From: a virus | Lineage: Duplodnaviria > Caudoviricetes | Length of the DNA stretch: 57,715 bases | Strand: one strand, 5' to 3' | Virus record (IMG/VR): IMGVR_UViG_3300030376_003804 | Location: 1-57,715 of that record | In this document: one piece after another, positions 11,108 to 22,844 of the stretch | How the letters are laid out: every line of letters starts with the position of its first letter | Numbering within the stretch: the first letter of the stretch is position 1 | Position numbers and translations under genes: made by a program | The notes under the pieces: generated by a model | The model's database searches: none | The model's input: the letters and a program-made list of their open reading frames with translations, nothing else | Told to the model about the DNA's origin: nothing

Positions 11108-11123
11108 GCTATATAGAGCTTAT
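11108..11123 (-). repeat. Dispersed ATAAGCTCTATATAGC element, copy 1
   Basis: Reverse complement is identical to 21503-21518. Confidence 0.7.
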
Positions 11124-11257
11124 TATATAGGGTTAGTAGTGAGCCTAGTAGAAAAGCATATTCAAAAAATCACTCGATTTGTTTAAGGGGGTAGTGAGCG
11201 ATTTGTGCCTATATACCATATAATTTTAGACGGGGGGTATACTGAAAAAATAACCAT

Positions 11258-12517: not shown

Positions 12518-12569
12518 TTTTCCACTCGCGTGAAAAAACCTTTATATAGAGGTTCTCAGTTGGTATAAT

Positions 12570-13031: not shown

Positions 13032-13082
13032 TTTTCCACTCATGTGAAAAAACCTTTATATAGCCCTACTCATTGGTAATGT

Positions 13083-13443: not shown

Positions 13444-13556
13444 AGAGCATCTTAGATATACTAGACGACATGGTTATATCTGGCATCGAAGAGGCAGGGG
13501 ACTATATAGTTCTCTGTGGGTGTGAAGATGCACCTTGCTGTGGTTGTAACTTATGA
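13440..13556 (+). CDS. 38-aa CEDAPCCGC-motif microprotein
   Basis: ATGA overlap; C-terminal CGCEDAPCCGC motif recurrent in phage small proteins. Confidence 0.7.
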   Translation: MKSILDILDDMVISGIEEAGDYIVLCGCEDAPCCGCNL

Positions 13557-13630
13557 GTTACGAAACGCCACTAAAACGCAGTTGGAAAAAAGAAACAAAT
13601 AAGATTATTAAAAAGGCCAGCACCAAATAG
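13553..13630 (+). CDS. 25-aa basic peptide
   Basis: ATGA overlap; MSYETPLKRSWKKETNKIIKKASTK. Confidence 0.45.
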   Translation: MSYETPLKRSWKKETNKIIKKASTK

Positions 13631-13650
13631 CTCGTTTGTTTTCAACCTCC

Positions 13651-13677
13651 GGGGGGTAGGGCCTCCCCCCACCTTTT
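13651..13677 (+). terminator. Hairpin plus T-run ending module 2
   Basis: GGGGGG-N8-CCCCCC followed by ACCTTTT. Confidence 0.55.
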
Positions 13678-13725
13678 CCACAAGAGTGAAAAAAGTCTTA
13701 TATAGGGTGGTGTTCTTGGTAATGT

Positions 13726-13968
13726 ATGAGCAAAGCAAATCCGTGTGGTAAGACCACATCAGTAGAAAAGCCTTATGAAGTATGGACAATGGACCATATG
13801 AACTTTGAATGGAGAGTATTAAAAAAATACCAAACTCCTGAGAATGAAGCAAAGAACCCATACGCCAGATGGTATTGTGCGGTGAAAAGTGACATGACCT
13901 ATGACATGTGGGAATACGGAGATGTTTATGTCTCTGAGATAAAACAAAACGGGGTAAAGCTTATATAG
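13726..13968 (+). CDS. Conserved phage early protein
   Basis: WRVLKKYQTPENEAKNPYARWYCAVKS...WEYGDVY; leaderless promoter. Confidence 0.78.
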   Translation: MSKANPCGKTTSVEKPYEVWTMDHMNFEWRVLKKYQTPENEAKNPYARWYCAVKSDMTYDMWEYGDVYVSEIKQNGVKLI

Positions 13969-13988
13969 GGTATCCCTAATGGTAATAC

Positions 13989-14325
13989 AGAGCGGGGAGC
14001 CCAAATTACCCCCGCTCACTTACAGTTACTGGCCGTAACATCGTATACGATTAGTGACCTGTGTATTAAGACAAGAATAGACCATACGCCAACAGACGAC
14101 AAGCAATAACAAACTCAAGCTGAACAAGTGCTGACCATTCCCTTTCCGGATGACGGCCGTTATAAACCATAACACATCGCGTAGCTAACAATTTGTATCA
14201 CCTTTTGCCTCACTGATTCCCTGTTATAAACTTAAGCGTCTACAGCTATGAAGTAATTCTCTTCATCTTTTTACTCCGCCTCTCGTGACGGATATCCGTT
14301 TGATTGGCGGCAGGTCACACCCCGT
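13989..14325 (+). ncRNA. Structured ncRNA candidate 2, with its own promoter
   Basis: Promoter at 13960 has GGTAATAC-AGA where its siblings have GGTAAT..-ATG; 5' hairpin GAGCGGGG/CCCCGCTC; long-range GTGACCTG(14054)/CAGGTCAC(14311); no ATG ORF over 12 codons. Confidence 0.68.
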
Positions 14326-14377
14326 TTTTCCACTTGTGTGAAAAAAGCTTTATATAGGGTCCCTCTCTTGGTAATAC

Positions 14378-14614
14378 ATGAGCCAAGCAACTCAGACTAA
14401 GACCAATCTTCCTTGGAAGAATGGAAGCAAGGAGGTCGACTACTTTGTAGAAATCGGCACGACTCCGTACGGTAAGTATGGATTATACAAAGAAATGATT
14501 CCTGTAGGCACAGGGTCCAGAGGGAGACATATGGAACTCGCTCGTGAGATTCGTCTGTCCAATCCGGAAATATTTGCGGAGTTAGAACTAAGACAAGTTG
14601 TCAGCAGGGGATAA
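14378..14614 (+). CDS. Hypothetical early protein
   Basis: Leaderless promoter; ATG 29 nt from the TATA start. Confidence 0.72.
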   Translation: MSQATQTKTNLPWKNGSKEVDYFVEIGTTPYGKYGLYKEMIPVGTGSRGRHMELAREIRLSNPEIFAELELRQVVSRG

Positions 14615-14644
14615 GTATAAATAGCTTGTCCTGTATGGAGTAGT

Positions 14645-14971
14645 ATGACTAAAGCAAAAATGGATTACCTTTGGGCACCAAAGTCTGAAGGTATTGTTAG
14701 CGACATACTTAACCAAATTGGTATCGAGAGGGTGGGTTCATCCGCTCGGTATCCAACCGGTGTAAAGTATGATACTCTGATTGCGATATCAGATGTGCTG
14801 CACAACAATGAAAAGTTTGCTAGTATGGTTGCATCAGCAACTCATGCTTACCAAAGCAAACGCAAAGTAGAAGGTCGAGCTCCCTCTGTTGATTCACTCG
14901 TCTCACAGATGGGTCGAATGACAGAAGCTGACCTGAAGAAGGCGATGAAAAAAGCTGGACTCATCAAGTAA
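14645..14971 (+). CDS. Hypothetical early protein
   Basis: TATAAATA at 14616; ATG 29 nt later. Confidence 0.72.
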   Translation: MTKAKMDYLWAPKSEGIVSDILNQIGIERVGSSARYPTGVKYDTLIAISDVLHNNEKFASMVASATHAYQSKRKVEGRAPSVDSLVSQMGRMTEADLKKAMKKAGLIK

Positions 14972-14979
14972 GACAAATG

Positions 14980-15268
14980 AAGCAGCTGGGCATCTCAGAA
15001 AACTGCCCACCTTATCTTTAACGGGGTAGCTCCCTGTTATCGGGTATGGCCGAATAAGTGTAGTCACGCACTAAGGCACACAAACGCACACCCAACGAGC
15101 AAGTGCTTGAGGGATGCGGGCGTGGTTGGACTGGATTACTACAAACTGTAGTGACATCTGGGCCTTGGGGGTAATACAGATATCCCCCTACCCACCTTAT
15201 AGTTATGTTCTAACAGGCAGCCACAGGCAAGCCAAACAGGAACTAACACGCCCCCTTCGAGGGGCACC
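14980..15268 (+). ncRNA. Structured ncRNA candidate 3
   Basis: Serial hairpins TGGGCA/TGCCCA, TAACGGGG/CCCTGTTA, TTACTACA/TGTAGTGA and GGGGG/CCCCC; long-range GGGCGTGGTTGG/CTAACACGCCC. Confidence 0.55.
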
Positions 15269-15278
15269 TTTTTTTTTT
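15250..15278 (+). terminator. Hairpin plus T10 terminator
   Basis: GCCCC-CTTCGA-GGGGC followed by ten T. Confidence 0.7.
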
Positions 15279-15309
15279 CCACTCAAGGGGAAATACTTTT
15301 CCACGCGTG

Positions 15310-15565
15310 TGGGCCTCAGCTCAACTAATCTTTTTTTCTCAGCTCGTTAGGGCTCAGTGAGAAACTTCTCAGCTTGCTCTATAAAACACTTACGGGAGCT
15401 CGGTAGGGCACGGTGAGAAAAAGCTCTCAGTTCGCCTAGTGGGCTCGATTGAGCACTTCGGTAGGCCAGAATGAGAAAATGCTTTGTGAAGCTCATCCCA
15501 AACCGGAACCAGTTCGGGTTCAGTAGAGCTTTGTTCGCAACGATATGTGTTCGTGAGAAAAAGGT
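15310..15565. repeat. TGAGAAA/CTCAG repeat cluster (iteron-like)
   Basis: GCTCGTTAGGGCTCAGTGAGAAA, GCTCGGTAGGGCACGGTGAGAAA and CTTCGGTAGGCCAGAATGAGAAA at about 57-nt spacing, plus inverted TCTCAG copies. Confidence 0.65.
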
Positions 15566-15569
15566 AGTA

Positions 15570-15770
15570 GTAATATGTTCTTAGCCTATATTAATAAGCT
15601 CTATTAAGAGCACTACTCAGCTCATAATATAGCTCTATAAGCTCTATATCGCAAAGCTCTACTGAGTAAATCTCTATTAATCTCTTTACTTACTGCTATA
15701 CTATACCATAATAGAGCAATACTTAATATAGTTAATATAGGGAGTACGAACTATATATAGTTTTGCATGA
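15570..15770. repeat. AT-rich tract with four AGCTCTA(T/C) repeats; candidate replication origin
   Basis: Copies at 15597, 15631, 15640 and 15655; palindrome AACTATATATAGTT at about 15749-15762; non-coding. Confidence 0.55.
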
Positions 15771-15867
15771 AAAAGCCCCCCGTTTTTTTACTCAGTACAT
15801 AATTTGAGCACGGTGTCTCAGCCCATAAGGGGTAACGCTTATATAGGGTTATATAGATGTAGATACG

Positions 15868-16164
15868 ATGACTATGACCGACATCAATTCAATAGCAAAA
15901 CAATTAAAAAGCCTGTCAGCCACAGAACTACAAAAGCTTCTATTGGCTACCTCGAACGTAGATGGTTCCGAAATAAGAAGAAAGCGTATCGCTCGAACTG
16001 AGAAGTATTTCGAACACGCTCCGAAACCACATCACTGTCTTACCTACGGTGTGTATTCAGACACAGTTGATTACATACATGAAATAGGTATGGACAAATG
16101 GTTATCTCAGAAGGTTAACAACCGAACTAAGAACGCTACCTTCGTTACAGTGAGGCGACAATGA
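15868..16164 (+). CDS. Hypothetical early protein
   Basis: CTTATATA at 15838; ATG 30 nt later. Confidence 0.7.
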   Translation: MTMTDINSIAKQLKSLSATELQKLLLATSNVDGSEIRRKRIARTEKYFEHAPKPHHCLTYGVYSDTVDYIHEIGMDKWLSQKVNNRTKNATFVTVRRQ

Positions 16165-16511
16165 ATAAAGAAACAGTAAACAAGTTTAACAATTACATGA
16201 CTCAGCACACAGACAAAGTTCCTTTGCTTAGTGTTCAGTCAGTTGAGGATAAACGTTTCAACGTGTTGAGAGAGTTTTTATCTCAGTGCTTCGATGATGT
16301 AGAAGACAATGCTTGGTCAGTCAGTATGAACTTAGGAAAGTTCGTCGACTCTCTCAGCACAATGGAACAATCAGACAGAGATGCTTTGTCTCGCTTAGTA
16401 TCTAAATACGAAGTGAAAGGCACAAGCAGTGGTATCTCAGGTGAGAGGACATACGGTTACGACCGAAGTAGAGTCGACCGTGCTCTCATCAGGCGAAGGA
16501 GGGCCAACTGA
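16161..16511 (+). CDS. Hypothetical protein
   Basis: ATGA overlap; GTGAGG SD. Confidence 0.7.
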   Translation: MNKETVNKFNNYMTQHTDKVPLLSVQSVEDKRFNVLREFLSQCFDDVEDNAWSVSMNLGKFVDSLSTMEQSDRDALSRLVSKYEVKGTSSGISGERTYGYDRSRVDRALIRRRRAN

Positions 16512-16512
16512 G

Positions 16513-17556
16513 ATGTTAAAAGAAACACCAACTGAGTGGCTAACAGGCTACACTGAGGATGCAACCGGAAAGCTTATAAAGGCTACCGAACATGAGGAAA
16601 TAATGAAGTCGACCGACACACATAGAGGACTCGAAGGTTTATTCGACCGAGACAGTCCCACGCCAGAAGAGGAACCTACCCCCGAAAAAGTGGTAGAAAA
16701 AGAGACAGTTATGTCCAAACTGAAAGGCTCAGTTAATGTGCCCGAAGAGTTTAAGTTCGCTGATGACATGACTTTCTACACTATGTTGAGGAACATATTT
16801 CGTGGTAAGAATATTCTCATCACGGGACCATCAGGGTGTGGTAAGTCTAGTCTCGGTAAGATACTAGCCGAGATTACATCAAAAGAATTCTACTCTTTCA
16901 ACTTCGGTGATACTATGAATCCCTCAGCTAAGTTGCTAGGTGATACTAAGTATGACAAGGAATCAGGCACATGGTTCAAGCCTTCTCGGTTTGTTAATGC
17001 AATACAAGCTGATTCATTCATTATGCTGGATGAGGTTACACGTGACCGAACAGGTGACTTAGCTAACATTCTCATGCCGGTATTGGATGGTCAGAAGTAT
17101 TTGGCTCTTGATGAGTCTGAGGATGCTGACAGTGTCTCAGTCCACAAAGGTGCCTTCTTCTATGCTACAGCCAACATCGGTCGAGAGTATCTCGGTGCGT
17201 CTCATGACTTAGACCGTGCTTGGAAAGATAGATTCACCGGAGGTATATACGAACTAGAGTATCTCCCTCCACAGAAAGAGAAAGAACTATTACAGAATCG
17301 TAACCCTCAGCTCGACGACTACAACGCTGACAAGATTGTAGACTTTGCTAAGAGAGTGCGTGACTTACACAAGTCAGACGAACTAGCTACAGCAGTATCA
17401 ACACGTATGTGTTTAGCATCAGCTGAGTTGGTTGTAGATGGGATGAGTTTGGAGGATGCATTGAAACATACCTGTTTACCTTTCTACCCTATTCAAGGTG
17501 GTGACGATACTGAGAGAGTTCGTATCATACAAGTTATTCAATCAATGGGTGAATAA
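16513..17556 (+). CDS. MoxR/CbbQ-NorQ-type AAA+ ATPase (start 16513 or 16603)
   Basis: Walker A GPSGCGKS, Walker B IMLDE, ATAN, LDRAWKDRF, STR sensor. Confidence 0.9.
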   Translation: MLKETPTEWLTGYTEDATGKLIKATEHEEIMKSTDTHRGLEGLFDRDSPTPEEEPTPEKVVEKETVMSKLKGSVNVPEEFKFADDMTFYTMLRNIFRGKNILITGPSGCGKSSLGKILAEITSKEFYSFNFGDTMNPSAKLLGDTKYDKESGTWFKPSRFVNAIQADSFIMLDEVTRDRTGDLANILMPVLDGQKYLALDESEDADSVSVHKGAFFYATANIGREYLGASHDLDRAWKDRFTGGIYELEYLPPQKEKELLQNRNPQLDDYNADKIVDFAKRVRDLHKSDELATAVSTRMCLASAELVVDGMSLEDALKHTCLPFYPIQGGDDTERVRIIQVIQSMGE

Positions 17557-17937
17557 ATGCCTAGAGTTCAAAAAAGAAAACATACATATTGGCATCAGTT
17601 GGCTAAGTTGTTAATCATAAATGGTTACAAACCAGCTCAGTGTGCAAAGGTTCTCAAGTCGGTATTCCCCGACACTGAGGTCAATGGTAGACACATCGGT
17701 GCATACAAACGTAGATTACTACAAGATGAGGACCTAATCATACCAGACAGAGCAACTATGCCACTCAATCAGATGACAGAGATGGCTCACGGTATGGTAT
17801 CAACTGAGGACCTATTCATATACAAGTGTGTAGTGGGTTCAGCTAAGAGAAGTCTCAAGTGCTTTGAGTTCAAGTTCAGAGCTGAGGACAAAGACCTAGT
17901 AAGTGAGGTAGATGAATGGATTACAAAACTACAGTAG
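17557..17937 (+). CDS. Hypothetical protein, possible N-terminal HTH
   Basis: Abuts the ATPase stop; basic helical N-terminus. Confidence 0.6.
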   Translation: MPRVQKRKHTYWHQLAKLLIINGYKPAQCAKVLKSVFPDTEVNGRHIGAYKRRLLQDEDLIIPDRATMPLNQMTEMAHGMVSTEDLFIYKCVVGSAKRSLKCFEFKFRAEDKDLVSEVDEWITKLQ

Positions 17938-20003
17938 ACGATTGGGCTGAGGACACAGATGACTTTTGTCATTACTGTGATGATTGGACTGATGCCGATG
18001 AACATAACAACTGTGCTGACTGTGGTATTGCATATAGTACAGTTGACCCTTTCCTCACTCCATCAGTAGCTAAGGTATACAGCTCACCTGCACCATCTAT
18101 CTCAGCACACGGTGACGTGTGGGGTAGAGGTGGTTCATACACATGGGGTGGTGTTGGTAGTGCAACAGCCTCAGCATGGGGTGGTTTCTCTACAGGCACG
18201 AGTTCATCAGCTCGTATGCTTAAACACAAAAGACACTTAGATTCTCTGTGTAAAGTAGTTGACCCTAACGTAAAGCATACACTTAACTTTGCTACTGAGG
18301 GTAGAAACTATTCTAACATGAGAACCGGTGCACTATTCGTTGACGGCACTCTCATCAAAGACAGTGATGCCAAACTAGATATTGTTGCTGGTCTCTCAAT
18401 ACACGAGAAGTTACACTTAGTTCATACTCAACCACTAGTTAAGTGGCAAAAGCAATATTCTTATGACAAACGTCTCAGCGACGCACAGACTGAGTTACTA
18501 CATAGTATTGGTAATATCATAGAAGATGAGTATATCGAGTCTCAGTTAGCTAAGACTCATGCTGGTTACGTTACATACATCGACAAAGTCAAAGAACACT
18601 TCTTTGCTAAGCATGACATCGGAACCATCAAGGGTAATGTTGTTGCTGATGTATTAAACACATTACTAGCTATGGTGAGGTTTCCTTCTAGCATCTCAGA
18701 TGAACGTAAGAAGAGACACGCCAAACACATTCAGTTCTTTGCTCGTGCTTTGAAGAATGCTTTGGTAAACAGAGAGTCAACACTAGTTGCCATTCAGTCT
18801 ATATACGAATACATCTATCAGTTGGCTGTGACTGAAGCTAAAAAGAAAGGTGACACTACTGAAGAAGAAATCCTAGAACGTGCTGAGACTAGAATGTCTG
18901 AGTTGATTAAAGAGTGGGGTGGTGACACTGAGTTAGATAGTGACGCACTAGCAAAAATCAAAGACAGACTGATAGAACAAGAACGTGATGATGCAGCACG
19001 AACTGATAGATACAGTAGTGAAACATTACTTAGGGAGTCGCTTGATAAGTCCGGAGCCAAACTAGCTGACTATGCTGCTGAGTCTGAGACTATTAGTGAC
19101 AGACTAGACAAGGCTATCAGAGACTTAGCTGACAGTGATTACTCTGAGGATGAGTGGGACAGTGGTCGTGCTCTCGGTTTGAGATATGGGACTAAGGTTA
19201 CATGGCGTAACCAACACGCTAGTGACTATGAAGGTCAATTGTATAATGAGACAGTCAAGAACATGAGACCATCTATCGGTCAACTAAAGCGTAAGATACA
19301 ACTTTATGGTGATACTAAGATACACACCATTCGCAATCAACGAAGAGGCAAACTAGACAAAAAGATGTTACATAAAATACCTCTCGGTCGACCCGACCTA
19401 TTTAAAAATGTCATCGTTGATGAAGACAAACCATTAGATGTGTGTCTCTTAGTTGATGAGTCCGGCAGTATGGGTTCATGGAAAATGAAGAAAGCCCGAC
19501 AGACTGCAATCGCTTTGCGTGAAGCACTTAAAGACAATCAGGCTCTCAACCTGTGGGTCTTTGGTCACACAGCTGATGGCTATGAATGGGGTAAGGAAGG
19601 TGAAACTAATATGTCAGTATATTGGTCACCAACTTATCAGTCAGATATCAGAGCCATCGGTGCAATGACTGCTCGTGCAGAGAACAGAGACGGCATGGCT
19701 CTCTTAGCATCAGCCGAGAGAGTCAAAGCTGAGTCACCATCCATAGGTAGTAACAAACTAATGATTGTTATCTCAGATGGTGAACCATCAGCCAACGGAT
19801 ATAGATTCTCAACCGGTGTACCTCACACCAAAAAGTGTGTCAAACACTTAGAGGGACAGGGTTGGAACATCATACAGGTTGGTATCAGTGGTGCACGTGA
19901 ACGTAGTATGCGTGAGATGTTTACTAACTACATGTTAGTAGATGACACCAACGAACTACCAGCTAAGATAAGTAAAATCATCAGGAAGGTGATAAAGGTT
20001 TAG
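17916..20003 (+). CDS. VWA-domain (CobT/NorD-like) partner protein with HExxH region and N-terminal Zn finger
   Basis: MIDAS LLVDESGSM and VISDGEP; RRGKLD motif; HEKLH...NIIEDEYIE; CHYC...CADC. Confidence 0.88.
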   Translation: MDYKTTVDDWAEDTDDFCHYCDDWTDADEHNNCADCGIAYSTVDPFLTPSVAKVYSSPAPSISAHGDVWGRGGSYTWGGVGSATASAWGGFSTGTSSSARMLKHKRHLDSLCKVVDPNVKHTLNFATEGRNYSNMRTGALFVDGTLIKDSDAKLDIVAGLSIHEKLHLVHTQPLVKWQKQYSYDKRLSDAQTELLHSIGNIIEDEYIESQLAKTHAGYVTYIDKVKEHFFAKHDIGTIKGNVVADVLNTLLAMVRFPSSISDERKKRHAKHIQFFARALKNALVNRESTLVAIQSIYEYIYQLAVTEAKKKGDTTEEEILERAETRMSELIKEWGGDTELDSDALAKIKDRLIEQERDDAARTDRYSSETLLRESLDKSGAKLADYAAESETISDRLDKAIRDLADSDYSEDEWDSGRALGLRYGTKVTWRNQHASDYEGQLYNETVKNMRPSIGQLKRKIQLYGDTKIHTIRNQRRGKLDKKMLHKIPLGRPDLFKNVIVDEDKPLDVCLLVDESGSMGSWKMKKARQTAIALREALKDNQALNLWVFGHTADGYEWGKEGETNMSVYWSPTYQSDIRAIGAMTARAENRDGMALLASAERVKAESPSIGSNKLMIVISDGEPSANGYRFSTGVPHTKKCVKHLEGQGWNIIQVGISGARERSMREMFTNYMLVDDTNELPAKISKIIRKVIKV

Positions 20004-22111: not shown

Positions 22112-22242
22112 AAAAGAGAGCAACTAAAGTACCATACGAAGGATATACTCTACCTCCCTCATCTGAGAGGGGTGGTAAGTTTGTAGACTTCAATAAAGTA
22201 ATGAATAGAAAACCAATAAAGAAAGTAAGGATAAAGAAATGA
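22108..22242 (+). CDS. 44-aa basic hypothetical protein
   Basis: ATGA overlaps at both ends. Confidence 0.5.
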   Translation: MKKRATKVPYEGYTLPPSSERGGKFVDFNKVMNRKPIKKVRIKK

Positions 22243-22844
22243 AAGAGATAATGGAAGAATACAGCACCACGTTCTTTGAATGTATGAGTGCATGGCCTAA
22301 TGATATCAAAGAAGATATATACAAATTGTACGCATACCTCAGAGTATGTGATGAGATGGTTGAAGGCGAGAAGGAAATACATGACTTCAAACAATGGAGG
22401 GAAGTTATAGAACAGTTCTACGAAGTGAGCGATAAGTATCAGTTCGAAGGTGAATGGCTCTCAGACTTTCACGTTAGTATGTATCAGGACATGGTGAAGA
22501 AAGAACACACTATAGTATCTATGTTAGAATATTGTAAGGGTTCAGCTGAGTCAGTTGGTATGATGATGTCAAAGATACTAGGCTGCCACCCACGATGTGA
22601 ACAACACGCCAGAGCTTTAGGTAGAGCATTCCAAATAATTAACTTTATAAGAGATTATGATGAGGATGTTTCAAAGGGTTACCATTACATCACAGATAAC
22701 TTTAGTGCATACTTAGAAATATTCTATCAAGATTTAGATAACGGTATGGATGGTATAGATTTTATACCAAAAGAATTACAACCACCTATCCTTATGGCTG
22801 TAGAAAAATATATGGCTGTAGCCAAGAAGGTGGATGAAGCCTAA
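22239..22844 (+). CDS. Compact phytoene/squalene synthase family protein
   Basis: YSTTF, LYAYLRVCDEMVE, EYCKGSAESVG, ARALGRAFQIINFIRDYDED..KG..Y. Confidence 0.85.
   Translation: MKEIMEEYSTTFFECMSAWPNDIKEDIYKLYAYLRVCDEMVEGEKEIHDFKQWREVIEQFYEVSDKYQFEGEWLSDFHVSMYQDMVKKEHTIVSMLEYCKGSAESVGMMMSKILGCHPRCEQHARALGRAFQIINFIRDYDEDVSKGYHYITDNFSAYLEIFYQDLDNGMDGIDFIPKELQPPILMAVEKYMAVAKKVDEA

What the first reader, a model, noticed from the sequence alone, without database searches (positions are those of the whole stretch)
13960..14325. A cassette promoter that fires into a ~335-nt non-coding RNA instead of a start codon
Seen: the promoter CTTATATAGGGTATCCCTAATGGTAATAC closely matches its sibling at 14349 but is followed by AGAGCGGGG rather than ATG. 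The transcript would open with an 8-bp hairpin (13990-14017), then GTTAC/GTAAC and ATCGTATACGAT. An 8-bp long-range helix (14054-14061 with 14311-14318) encloses a large domain with ATGAAG/CTTCAT, CCGCC/GGCGG and ACGGATATCCGT helices. That domain also has an A/C-rich unpaired stretch with repeated ATTCCCT and GTTATAAAC words. No ATG ORF exceeds 12 codons. I do not recognise it as tRNA, SRP RNA, RNase P RNA or tmRNA. Inference: a stand-alone early viral ncRNA such as a decoy, sponge or guide carrier.
Basis: partly seen in the sequence, partly recalled or inferred. Interest (0 to 1): 0.85.

Follow-up and report, generated by a model that had tools for sequence, protein, structure and literature searches.

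The report
New structured RNA gene of marine viruses
The gap between two small virus genes holds a separately promoted, roughly 340-base folded RNA that matches no catalogued RNA family, recurs in over a hundred marine sequences, and carries loop sequences suggesting that copies of it stick to one another.

Summary
Window 13960-14330 (+) has a TATA-type promoter identical to its siblings, and it fires into an ORF-less stretch.

- **Conservation.** The stretch lies between the same two small genes in 144 of 166 related loci. Another 21 lack enough flank to tell. It is as conserved at nucleotide level as those genes.
- **Base pairing.** On 55 non-redundant sequences the proposed helices pair in 97-99% of cells, against 25-47% for slid controls. 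There are 199-207 doubly changed cells against 4-24.
- **Distant homologs.** A covariance model finds further copies, several on the strand opposite to the upstream gene. They keep the 8-bp closing helix with entirely different sequences.
- **Strand.** G·U 13 against A·C 0, plus UUCG/GAAA loops, name the + strand.
- **Expression.** An RNA-library contig of 300 nt covers 14025-14322.
- **Known families.** Rfam 15 has no match.

So this is a real, new, stand-alone structured ncRNA family. The window copy is a short form of about 340 nt. Most relatives carry an extra 3' module.

New here: two hairpin loops switch between many different perfect palindromes. That is the signature used to support symmetric kissing loops in OLE and GOLLD RNAs, so I infer self-association.

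The function (decoy, sponge, scaffold) is untested and the host is unresolved.

The parts
13960..13988 (+). Promoter of the RNA gene. The TATA box is at 13961-13968 and the spacer carries a small inverted repeat (TAGGGT.TCCCTA). It overlaps the stop codon of gene A (TAG, 13966-13968). It lacks the upstream TTTTCCAC....GTGAAAAA element that its siblings have.
   Evidence: A TATA motif upstream of the RNA was found in 146 of 147 loci.
13989..14329 (+). Predicted transcript, about 341 nt. The start is inferred from the TATA-to-ATG spacing of the sibling promoters. The end is inferred from the T5 run.
   Evidence: Spacing. T run. RNA-library contig on 14025-14322. Neither end was mapped.
13990..14017 (+). 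H0, an optional 5'-terminal hairpin (GAGCGGGG / CCCCGCTC).
   Evidence: Present in 93 of 155 loci. The stems covary, for example GAGAGAGTT/GACTCTCTC and GAGTGGGG/CCCCACTC.
14025..14039 (+). H1 hairpin (GTTAC loop GTAAC). In relatives the loop is usually one base plus a 6-nt palindrome. The window has only GGCC.
14040..14051 (+). A 12-nt perfect palindrome, ATCGTATACGAT. It is an insertion found only in the two H1 classes that lack a 6-nt palindrome in the loop.
   Evidence: 9 of 84 unique sequences.
14054..14061 (+). P1, 5' strand of the 8-bp closing helix. It pairs with 14311-14318.
14062..14148 (+). A/C-rich, G-poor linker of variable length with conserved blocks. It contains the 5' strands of P2 (14083-86) and of the tentative P2a (14106-11), and the first invariant UCCCU (14139-43).
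14149..14178 (+). P3 stem (14149-52 / 14175-78). It encloses the palindromic site 1 (ACGGCCGT, 14153-60) and a second small hairpin.
14179..14250 (+). C/U-rich conserved segment. It holds the second invariant UCCCU (14218-22) and the 3' strands of P2a (14222-27) and P2 (14247-50).
14276..14310 (+). P5, a three-tier stem-loop: 14276-80/14306-10, 14283-84/14302-03 and 14287-91/14296-300. The internal-loop letters C.UGA ... UUUG are invariant. The tetraloop is AUAU here and UUCG or GAAA in relatives.
14311..14318 (+). P1, 3' strand.
14325..14345 (+). T5 run, a likely archaeal-type terminator. It is fused to the palindromic TTTTCCAC....GTGAAAAA element that precedes the promoter of gene B (TATA at 14349, ATG at 14378).
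   Evidence: four perfect copies in the window against 0.07 expected.

Best explanation
Window 13989 to about 14329 (+) is an independent gene for a trans-acting, highly structured non-coding RNA. It belongs to a previously uncatalogued family carried by a clade of marine tailed dsDNA viruses whose promoters look archaeal (TATA box, leaderless mRNAs).

**Shown**
- A TATA promoter of the same type as the neighbouring small-gene promoters precedes it.
- It has no ORF.
- Its place is conserved.
- Several helices covary: a closing helix P1, a branched 5' domain (P2, P3) and a three-tier stem P5 with an invariant internal loop.
- The signal is specific to the + strand.
- RNA-library contigs lie on it.

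**Inferred**
- The RNA acts as a folded particle, not as a leader.
- Copies associate with each other through symmetric kissing loops. The loop of hairpin H1 and the small hairpin inside P3 stay perfect palindromes while their sequence changes freely.
- The A/C-rich, length-variable linker and the invariant unpaired blocks (UCCCU twice, ACCAUACGC, C.UGA/UUUG) would then be displayed on a dimer or larger assembly. There they could bind or sequester a viral or host partner during infection.
- The partner and the biological effect are unknown.
For: **Gene-like unit**
- Promoter and spacing.
- TATA upstream in 146 of 147 loci, and synteny A-RNA-B in 144 of 166 loci with 21 undecidable and 1 without.
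- Inverted relative to gene A in L038, L042, L047, L048 and L032. L042 has a TATA-like box upstream on the RNA's own strand.

**Spread**
- 115 of 115 metagenome pattern hits are true homologs by nhmmer.
- There are 84 unique cores and 55 representatives below 96% identity.

**Covariation**
- 98.8% of 1726 cells pair, against 26.8-46.3% when slid.
- 199 cells change on both sides, against 4-24.
- 16 pairs change on both sides, against 3-7.
- 0 of 500 shuffles reach the observed value on four of the five measures. One search is similar.
- RNAalifold finds 16 of 26 pairs with double changes.
- Distant homologs keep P1 as GGCACGCT/GGCGTGCC, GGGCCTGT/ACAGGCCC, GGACGGG/CCCGTCC and GGTCGG/CCGACC.

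**Strand**
- G·U 13 (plus an invariant G·U in all 55) against A·C 0, in 1485 cells of the well-supported helices.
- UUCG and GAAA loops occur on +.

**Conservation**
- The core is 63-85% identical in nucleotides, against 66-76% for gene A and 70-92% for gene B.

**Expression**
- X15 holds one 300-nt contig at depth 23.6 on 14025-14322.
- X17 holds contigs on 13929-14149, 14127-14205 and 14181-14289.

**Self-association**
- Site 1 is a perfect palindrome of 8 nt or more in 40 of 41 distinct variants. There are 16 different palindromes and 9 different central tetranucleotides.
- The P5 hairpin of the same RNA, as a control, is palindromic in only 4 of 14 variants and otherwise uses UUCG or GAAA.
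- The H1 loop carries CAGCUG, CUUAAG, CACGUG or GCAUAUGC in the main group.
- It carries GACGUC, GAGCUC, AUGCAU, UAGCUA or UGCGCA in all 7 divergent homologs.
- In one subclass a second 6-nt palindrome (ATCGAT, TGGCCA, AGCGCT, TTCGAA, CGGCCG) sits where no hairpin can form.
- The same argument, palindromic loop letters switching among palindromes, was used for OLE L9.3 and GOLLD L21a (PMC12286853, passages read).
Against: - Single-sequence folding of the + strand is no better than 6 of 100 shuffles. The - strand folds better.
- No 5' or 3' end, strand or abundance was measured. The RNA evidence is Logan contigs from libraries that can hold DNA.
- One X17 contig starts 60 nt upstream of the predicted start, and an X16 contig bridges gene A into the RNA. 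Read-through from gene A or DNA carry-over is therefore possible.
- X16 and X18 cover the flanking genes at least as well as the RNA.
- Self-association rests on sequence patterns only. The window's own H1 loop has just a 4-nt palindrome, one H1 class (TCGGCCA) has no 6-nt palindrome, and H1 in two classes can instead form a 7-bp stem with a 3-nt loop.
- RNAcofold's dimer gain (-13 kcal/mol) has no control.
- P2a is only 87% paired.
- No partner was found. Proteins A and B match no family and no fold.
- The host is unresolved.
Confidence: 0.6

Rival explanations
1. It is a cis-acting part of a neighbouring mRNA. Either it is a structured 3' UTR of gene A, or it is a leader, attenuator or riboswitch controlling gene B.
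For: - The order A-RNA-B is fixed in 144 of 166 loci.
- An X17 contig runs from 13929 across the promoter into the RNA, and an X16 contig joins gene A to the RNA.
Against: - The RNA has its own TATA box at the sibling spacing in 146 of 147 loci.
- A T5 run and a separate leaderless promoter stand between it and gene B.
- In five distant homologs the RNA lies on the strand opposite to gene A.
- At 340-450 nt with optional modules, it is unlike a leader.
Confidence: 0.08
2. It is an antisense, guide or sponge RNA. The long unpaired A/C-rich stretch would base-pair with a host or viral nucleic acid, and the folded domains would serve as a handle. It is compatible with the best explanation as its functional half.
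For: - About 85 nt are G-poor and largely unpaired, with conserved blocks.
- The RNA is transcribed on its own.
Against: - No complementarity to the other 57 kb of the window rises above chance. The longest antisense match is 11 nt at E 3.7.
- The linker varies in length and sequence between relatives, whereas a guide to a fixed target would be conserved.
- No guide-using protein such as Cas, TnpB, IscB, Argonaute or an IS110 recombinase turned up among the 28 proteins scanned.
- Host targets could not be searched.
Confidence: 0.15
3. It is a DNA-level element made of palindromes and inverted repeats: a replication origin, a packaging site or an array of protein-binding sites.
For: - Many perfect palindromes.
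- It lies about 1.2 kb from an AT-rich repeat region at 15580-15760.
Against: - G·U 13 (plus 55 invariant) against A·C 0 shows selection on one strand only.
- UUCG and GAAA tetraloops occur.
- There is a long-range 8-bp helix across about 250 nt.
- A promoter and a T-run frame it, and RNA-library contigs lie on it.
- Protein sites would conserve their sequence. These palindromes change sequence and keep only their symmetry.
Confidence: 0.04
4. It is a decayed or very small protein-coding gene. The sibling promoters run into ATGAGC, while this one reads ACAGAGC as if the T of the ATG had been lost.
For: The promoter is of the same cassette type, and the letters after it resemble the siblings' start.
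Against: - Stops stand in all frames.
- No ORF is shared among 18 relatives.
- Indels are not in threes.
- The pattern of change is compensatory pairing.
- Nucleotide identity equals that of real genes over 115 or more loci.
Confidence: 0.02

Closest known systems
OLE, ROOL and GOLLD 'ornate' large RNAs (Rfam families). ROOL and GOLLD are encoded by phages and prophages.
   Same: - Large, independently encoded RNAs with complex folds and unknown function.
- ROOL and GOLLD are viral.
- They have a poorly conserved linker.
- Symmetric kissing loops are supported by loop letters that switch between palindromes (PMC12286853, passages read). Here two loops do the same, with far more variants.
   Different: - No sequence or structure match: cmscan finds nothing at E up to 10 in the window or in two full-length relatives.
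- It is smaller, at 340-450 nt.
- It is not next to tRNAs in the window.
- Its promoter type points to archaeal, not bacterial, viruses.
- Multimer formation is only inferred here.
phi29 packaging RNA (pRNA)
   Same: A phage-encoded RNA with its own promoter that works as an oligomer held together by loop-loop pairing. I recall this; no call shows it.
   Different: - pRNA loops pair hetero-typically (right loop with left loop), not through palindromes.
- No Rfam match appears here.
- This virus has a terminase and a portal, and nothing ties the RNA to packaging.
HIV-1 dimerisation initiation site
   Same: A hairpin loop made of flanking bases plus a 6-nt palindrome that differs between strains. 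I recall this. H1 here is one base plus a 6-nt palindrome, with 9 different palindromes.
   Different: The HIV site belongs to a genomic RNA of a retrovirus, not to a stand-alone ncRNA of a dsDNA virus. There is no homology.
manA RNA (RF01745)
   Same: A structured RNA of marine viruses and bacteria with unknown role. A member sits 690 nt downstream in the same window, at 15019-15198 (56.6 bits against a cut-off of 55.2), and in 7 of 10 relatives' loci.
   Different: It is a different family. The finding's RNA does not match it, and the two share only a 10-nt word (E 15).

Membership tests
Any Rfam 15 family (4227 models, including ROOL, GOLLD, OLE, HEARO, pRNA, 6S, SRP, RNase P, tmRNA, IMES, manA) | A match to the family's covariance model at or above its gathering score. 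| tested here: not met
   - Window at gathering score: only manA, at 15019-15198.
- 13500-16000 at E up to 10: nothing credible in the region. The only match there is H19_2, 12.6 bits on the - strand.
- Full-length relatives L003 and L011: best matches are 14.9 and 14.1 bits, against cut-offs of 50 and above.
Structured ncRNA gene (generic) | Base pairs kept through compensatory changes, beyond controls. | tested here: met
   - 98.8% paired against 26.8-46.3% when slid; 199 doubly changed cells against 4-24; 0 of 500 shuffles.
- P1 and P5 pair with unrelated sequences in distant homologs. That alignment is fitted to the model.
Structured ncRNA gene (generic) | Own promoter and terminator; no conserved ORF. 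| tested here: met
   (TATA in 146 of 147). T5 run. The ends are predicted, not mapped.
Structured ncRNA gene (generic) | A discrete transcript on the predicted strand. | tested here: inconclusive
   Contigs from RNA libraries lie on 14025-14322 and its parts. Contigs show neither strand nor ends, and such libraries can hold DNA.
Homo-oligomeric RNAs with symmetric kissing loops (as OLE, GOLLD) | Loop letters that remain self-complementary while changing. | tested here: met
   - Site 1: 40 of 41 variants palindromic, with 9 central tetranucleotides.
- H1: 9 different 6-8-nt palindromes.
- Control hairpin: 4 of 14.
Homo-oligomeric RNAs with symmetric kissing loops (as OLE, GOLLD) | A multimer observed physically. 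| not testable with these tools
   Needs native gels, mass photometry or cryo-EM of the transcript.
Cis-regulatory leader or riboswitch | Lies in the 5' UTR of the regulated gene, on the same strand and without an intervening promoter. | tested here: not met
   Gene B has its own TATA box 28 nt before a leaderless ATG. The RNA is inverted relative to gene A in five homologs.

The most novel reading that the evidence does not exclude
This is the first 'ornate', self-assembling RNA of (probably archaeal) viruses. A 340-450-nt RNA would use two or more symmetric kissing loops to build RNA-only dimers or closed multimers in infected cells of abundant marine microbes. It would display an A/C-rich linker and invariant motifs that capture a host factor. 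That makes it an archaeal-virus counterpart of ROOL and GOLLD, evolved independently.
Probability: 0.3. Interest if true: 0.9.

Novelty: new variant of a known kind. Interest (0 to 1): 0.78.

Why it matters
Large structured RNAs of unknown function are rare, and nearly all known ones come from bacteria and their phages. This one is widespread in ocean metagenomes: 115 loci from a single pattern scan.

It sits in a virus group with archaeal-type promoters. Its covariation is unusually clear, and it comes in modular forms, with an optional 5' hairpin and an optional 3' module.

Its palindrome-switching loops give a direct bench test, monomer against multimer, that needs only an in-vitro transcript. 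If it self-assembles, RNA quaternary structure would extend beyond bacteria.

It would also give a handle on early infection in viruses of uncultured marine microbes. The same early region carries a manA-family RNA, so these viruses appear to invest in several structured RNAs.

Tried and rejected
- **blastn against GenBank phages:** no match.
- **Flanking proteins A and B:** no Pfam or PHROG family. The AF2 models have pLDDT 90.1 and 79.6. Foldseek against PDB gives nothing better than E 0.78 and 0.93; the top hits, SmF and ribosomal protein LX, are not significant. There is therefore no evidence that either protein binds RNA.
- **Host**
  - The best GenBank virus hit for PolB is about 23% identical.
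  - The RNA pattern occurs in 0 of the species-representative genomes.
  - The Atlas look-up of the phytoene/squalene-synthase-like gene returned only viral clusters.
  - Protein A relatives lie on 6 MAG or SAG contigs of mixed bacterial and archaeal labels, none with the RNA.
  - The gene set (CobS-like AAA plus CobT-like VWA) recalls marthaviruses as described in PMC7678222 (passages). I did not find radA among the ORFs scanned, so I leave the host open.
- **Complementarity of the RNA to the rest of the window:** nothing above chance.
- **Candidate helix 173-176/214-217 of A2:** no double changes, 93% paired, so dropped.
not conserved.
- **K-turn, C/D-box, H/ACA and T-loop readings** of conserved motifs were considered by eye and dropped, because the defining letters are not kept across variants.
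- **Read laying:** Depth cannot rank genes.
- **RNAcofold dimer energy** has no control and is not used as evidence.
- **Literature.** Five searches found nothing on this RNA:
  - 'magrovirus' or 'non-coding RNA' (useless because min_terms was 1);
  - 'marthavirus';
  - 'magrovirus';
  - 'archaeal virus' with 'structured RNA' and 'metatranscriptom' (0 papers);
  - 'archaeal virus' with 'ncRNA' (45 papers, of which I saw the 12 listed titles and abstracts).
- For these papers I saw only listings, except PMC12286853 and PMC7678222, where I read passages.
- Supplements were not opened. Supplementary tables of the magrovirus, marthavirus and Poseidoniales-virus papers could list intergenic RNAs that I could not see.
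Full report
**What is in the window**

Positions 13960-13988 carry the motif CTTATATAGGGT...TGGTAATAC. The 12-mer is exact at 13697, 13960, 14349 and 15838. TTATATAGGG occurs six times, all on the + strand between 11.1 and 15.9 kb.

In four siblings the TATA start lies 27-29 nt before an ATG that opens an ORF. This is a TATA box with a leaderless mRNA, the usual archaeal arrangement; that reading is my inference from established knowledge.

At 13961 the same spacing lands on A13989 of ACAGAG, with no ATG. No + strand ORF of 25 aa or more lies in 13990-14340, and every frame has stops.

The stretch ends in a T5 run at 14325-29. That run is fused to TTTTCCACttgtGTGAAAAA, followed by the TATA box (14349) and the ATG (14378) of the next gene.

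The palindromic element occurs four times perfectly in the window, at 12518, 13032, 13674 and 14326, against 0.07 expected. Three of them (12518, 13674, 14326) stand immediately upstream of a TATA box; the stretch after 13032 was not read. The RNA's own promoter lacks this element, because it overlaps the end of gene A.

**Is it known?**

Rfam 15 finds nothing here at gathering score or at E up to 10. It also finds nothing in two full-length relatives. There is no tRNA or tmRNA and no match in GenBank phages.

**Relatives**

- The flanking proteins A (80 aa) and B (78 aa) led to 77 IMG/VR loci.
- Where both genes are present, a gap of 422-543 nt separates them.
- The gap is 70.7-85.9% identical to the window over 217-382 nt.
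- It has no shared ORF.
- A pattern built from conserved letters found 115 metagenome stretches, all 115 true by nhmmer.
- The same kind of scan of IMG/VR gave 46 hits, of which 16 were true, all on contigs already known.
- The species-representative genomes gave 0.
- Of 155 loci with a full core, 84 cores are unique and 55 are below 96% identical.
- The order A-RNA-B holds in 144 of 166 loci; 21 lack flank and 1 has neither.
- The core is 63-85% identical to the window's, like gene A (66-76%) and gene B (70-92%).

**Structure**

RNAalifold on the 55 representatives gave 26 pairs, 16 of them with compensatory double changes.

I tested an explicit structure with the count of structure pairs.

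| Measure | Structure as given | Partner slid by 1-3 columns |
|---|---|---|
| Cells paired (of 1726) | 98.8% | 26.8-46.3% |
| Cells changed on both sides | 199 | 4-24 |
| Pairs changed on both sides | 16 | 3-7 |

No shuffle out of 500 reached the observed value for four of the five measures.

Well-supported helices, in window coordinates:

- P1: 14054-61/14311-18.
- P2: 14083-86/14247-50, with A-U changed to U-A in 6 sequences.
- P3: 14149-52/14175-78.
- P5: 14276-80/14306-10, 14283-84/14302-03 and 14287-91/14296-300.

P2a (14106-11/14222-27) is tentative. It is 87% paired, with U-A changed to C-G in 5 sequences. A further candidate helix was dropped.

That region comes in two alternative module types.

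A covariance model found divergent homologs in L038, L042, L047/L048, L016, L035, L032 and L264. Five of them lie on the strand opposite to gene A. They keep P1 and P5 with unrelated sequences and keep the invariant C.UGA/UUUG loop (an alignment fitted to the model).

In the well-supported helices G·U occurs 13 times (plus one invariant G·U) and A·C never, in 1485 cells. Loops are often UUCG or GAAA. The selected strand is therefore +, although the - strand folds better by energy.

**Modules**

- The 5' hairpin H0 is present in 93 of 155 loci, with covarying stems.
- The 12-nt palindrome at 14040-51 is an insertion.
- 117 of 147 loci carry a 3' module, a variable hairpin plus GGCRACCGCUCC...GGUGAAGUYGC. 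It has 57 distinct forms.
- The window and L044 lack that module, so the window holds a short form.

**Expression**

Six RNA-library runs hold part of the stretch.

- X15 has one 300-nt contig, at depth 23.6, on 14025-14322.
- X17 has contigs on 13929-14149, 14127-14205 and 14181-14289.
- X16 and X18 cover genes A and B and the next gene at depth 2-8. X16 bridges gene A into the RNA of a relative without H0.

Contigs cannot show strand, ends or level, and such libraries can hold DNA. This is supporting evidence, not proof.

**Palindromic loops**

Directly after the 5' strand of P3 stands an 8-10-nt perfect palindrome in 40 of 41 distinct variants. There are 16 different palindromes. Their central four letters are GCGC, GGCC, AGCU, UUAA, CUAG, UGCA, UAUA, AAUU or CAUG.

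As a hairpin, this is 2-3 bp capped by a tetraloop. Nothing within one molecule requires that loop to be self-complementary.

The P5 hairpin of the same RNA serves as a control. It is palindromic in 4 of 14 variants and otherwise uses UUCG or GAAA.

H1's loop is one base plus a 6-nt palindrome:

- In the main group: CAGCUG, CUUAAG, CACGUG, and GCAUAUGC as an 8-mer.
- In all seven divergent homologs: GACGUC, GAGCUC, AUGCAU, UAGCUA or UGCGCA.

The exceptions are the window class, the TCGGCCA class and one other class, which have only a 4-nt palindrome in the loop. Two of these three classes carry the inserted 12-nt palindrome instead.

One subclass has a second 6-nt palindrome inside P3, where no hairpin can form.

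H1 and site 1 do not covary with each other, as read from the rows. Each is therefore self-complementary on its own.

The cryo-EM study of OLE, ROOL and GOLLD used this pattern as evidence for symmetric intermolecular kissing loops, because neighbouring loop bases of one chain cannot pair with each other (PMC12286853, section 8, passages read). I therefore infer, but have not shown, that this RNA forms dimers or larger symmetric assemblies.

**What it does**

Nothing I ran reveals a partner.

- Proteins A and B have no family and no significant fold match.
- The RNA has no complement in the window above chance.
- The virus has TerL, a portal, an HK97-type capsid protein, PolB, class II RNR, CobS/CobT-like proteins, a PD-(D/E)XK nuclease and a phytoene/squalene-synthase-like gene.
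- The record is 57.7 kb and estimated 82% complete.
- The host is unresolved.

My best account is a trans-acting, self-associating scaffold or decoy RNA made from a promoter that escapes the operator-like element of its siblings. The cis-leader, guide, DNA-element and decayed-gene readings are weighed in the rival explanations.

**Verdict**

The 'stand-alone viral ncRNA' reading is supported, and the functional labels are untested. It is a new RNA family, of a kind so far known from bacteria and their phages.

Noticed in passing
window 15019-15198 (+); also L001, L003, L004, L007, L009, L016, L042: A manA-family RNA (RF01745) lies in the next ORF-less gap of the same early region, after the gene at 14645-14971. 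It scores 56.6 bits against a cut-off of 55.2. It recurs above the cut-off (55.5-69.5 bits) in 7 of 10 relatives' loci. I recall manA RNAs as known from cyanophages and marine bacteria; here the promoters look archaeal. No clear TATA box precedes it, so it may be a 3' UTR.
   Followed up: partly
window 12518-12537, 13032-13051, 13674-13693, 14326-14345 (and degenerate at 15275-15294): The palindromic element TTTTCCAC-4 nt-GTGAAAAA occurs four times perfectly, against 0.07 expected. At 12518, 13674 and 14326 it stands immediately upstream of an early-gene TATA box; the stretch after 13032 was not read. It looks like an operator or a combined terminator and BRE. The RNA's own promoter lacks it.
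   Followed up: partly
window 15300-15780: A long ORF-poor stretch with T runs and, at about 15580-15700, repeated AGCTCTAT-like words in AT-rich sequence. It could be an origin or a regulatory region. I saw this by eye only.
   Followed up: no
window 11122-11133: Another copy of the cassette TATA motif (ATTATATAGGGT) has no ATG at the usual spacing. It may drive a further non-coding transcript.
   Followed up: no
L042 3260-3390 (- strand): Downstream of the inverted RNA gene, a second CTTATATAGGGG promoter points into about 100 nt without an ORF. That stretch ends at a G+C-rich hairpin shared with the end of gene A.
   Followed up: no
L042 2099-2174; L035 395-470: Related viral contigs carry a tRNA-Glu (UUC) with an encoded CCA end. 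In L042 it lies near a manA RNA at 1587-1772.
   Followed up: no
window 22239-22844 (+), 16429-17556 (+), 17916-20003 (+): Auxiliary-looking genes: a squalene/phytoene-synthase-like protein (PF00494, E 3.6e-27), a CobS/CbbQ-like AAA ATPase, and a CobT-like VWA protein.
   Followed up: partly
L250-L255: Relatives of the small protein A (38-63% identical) lie on MAG or SAG contigs labelled Neomarinimicrobiota, Gallionella, Nanoarchaeia, Acidiferrobacteraceae and Rickettsiales. The family is widespread, and these labels give no consistent host.
   Followed up: partly
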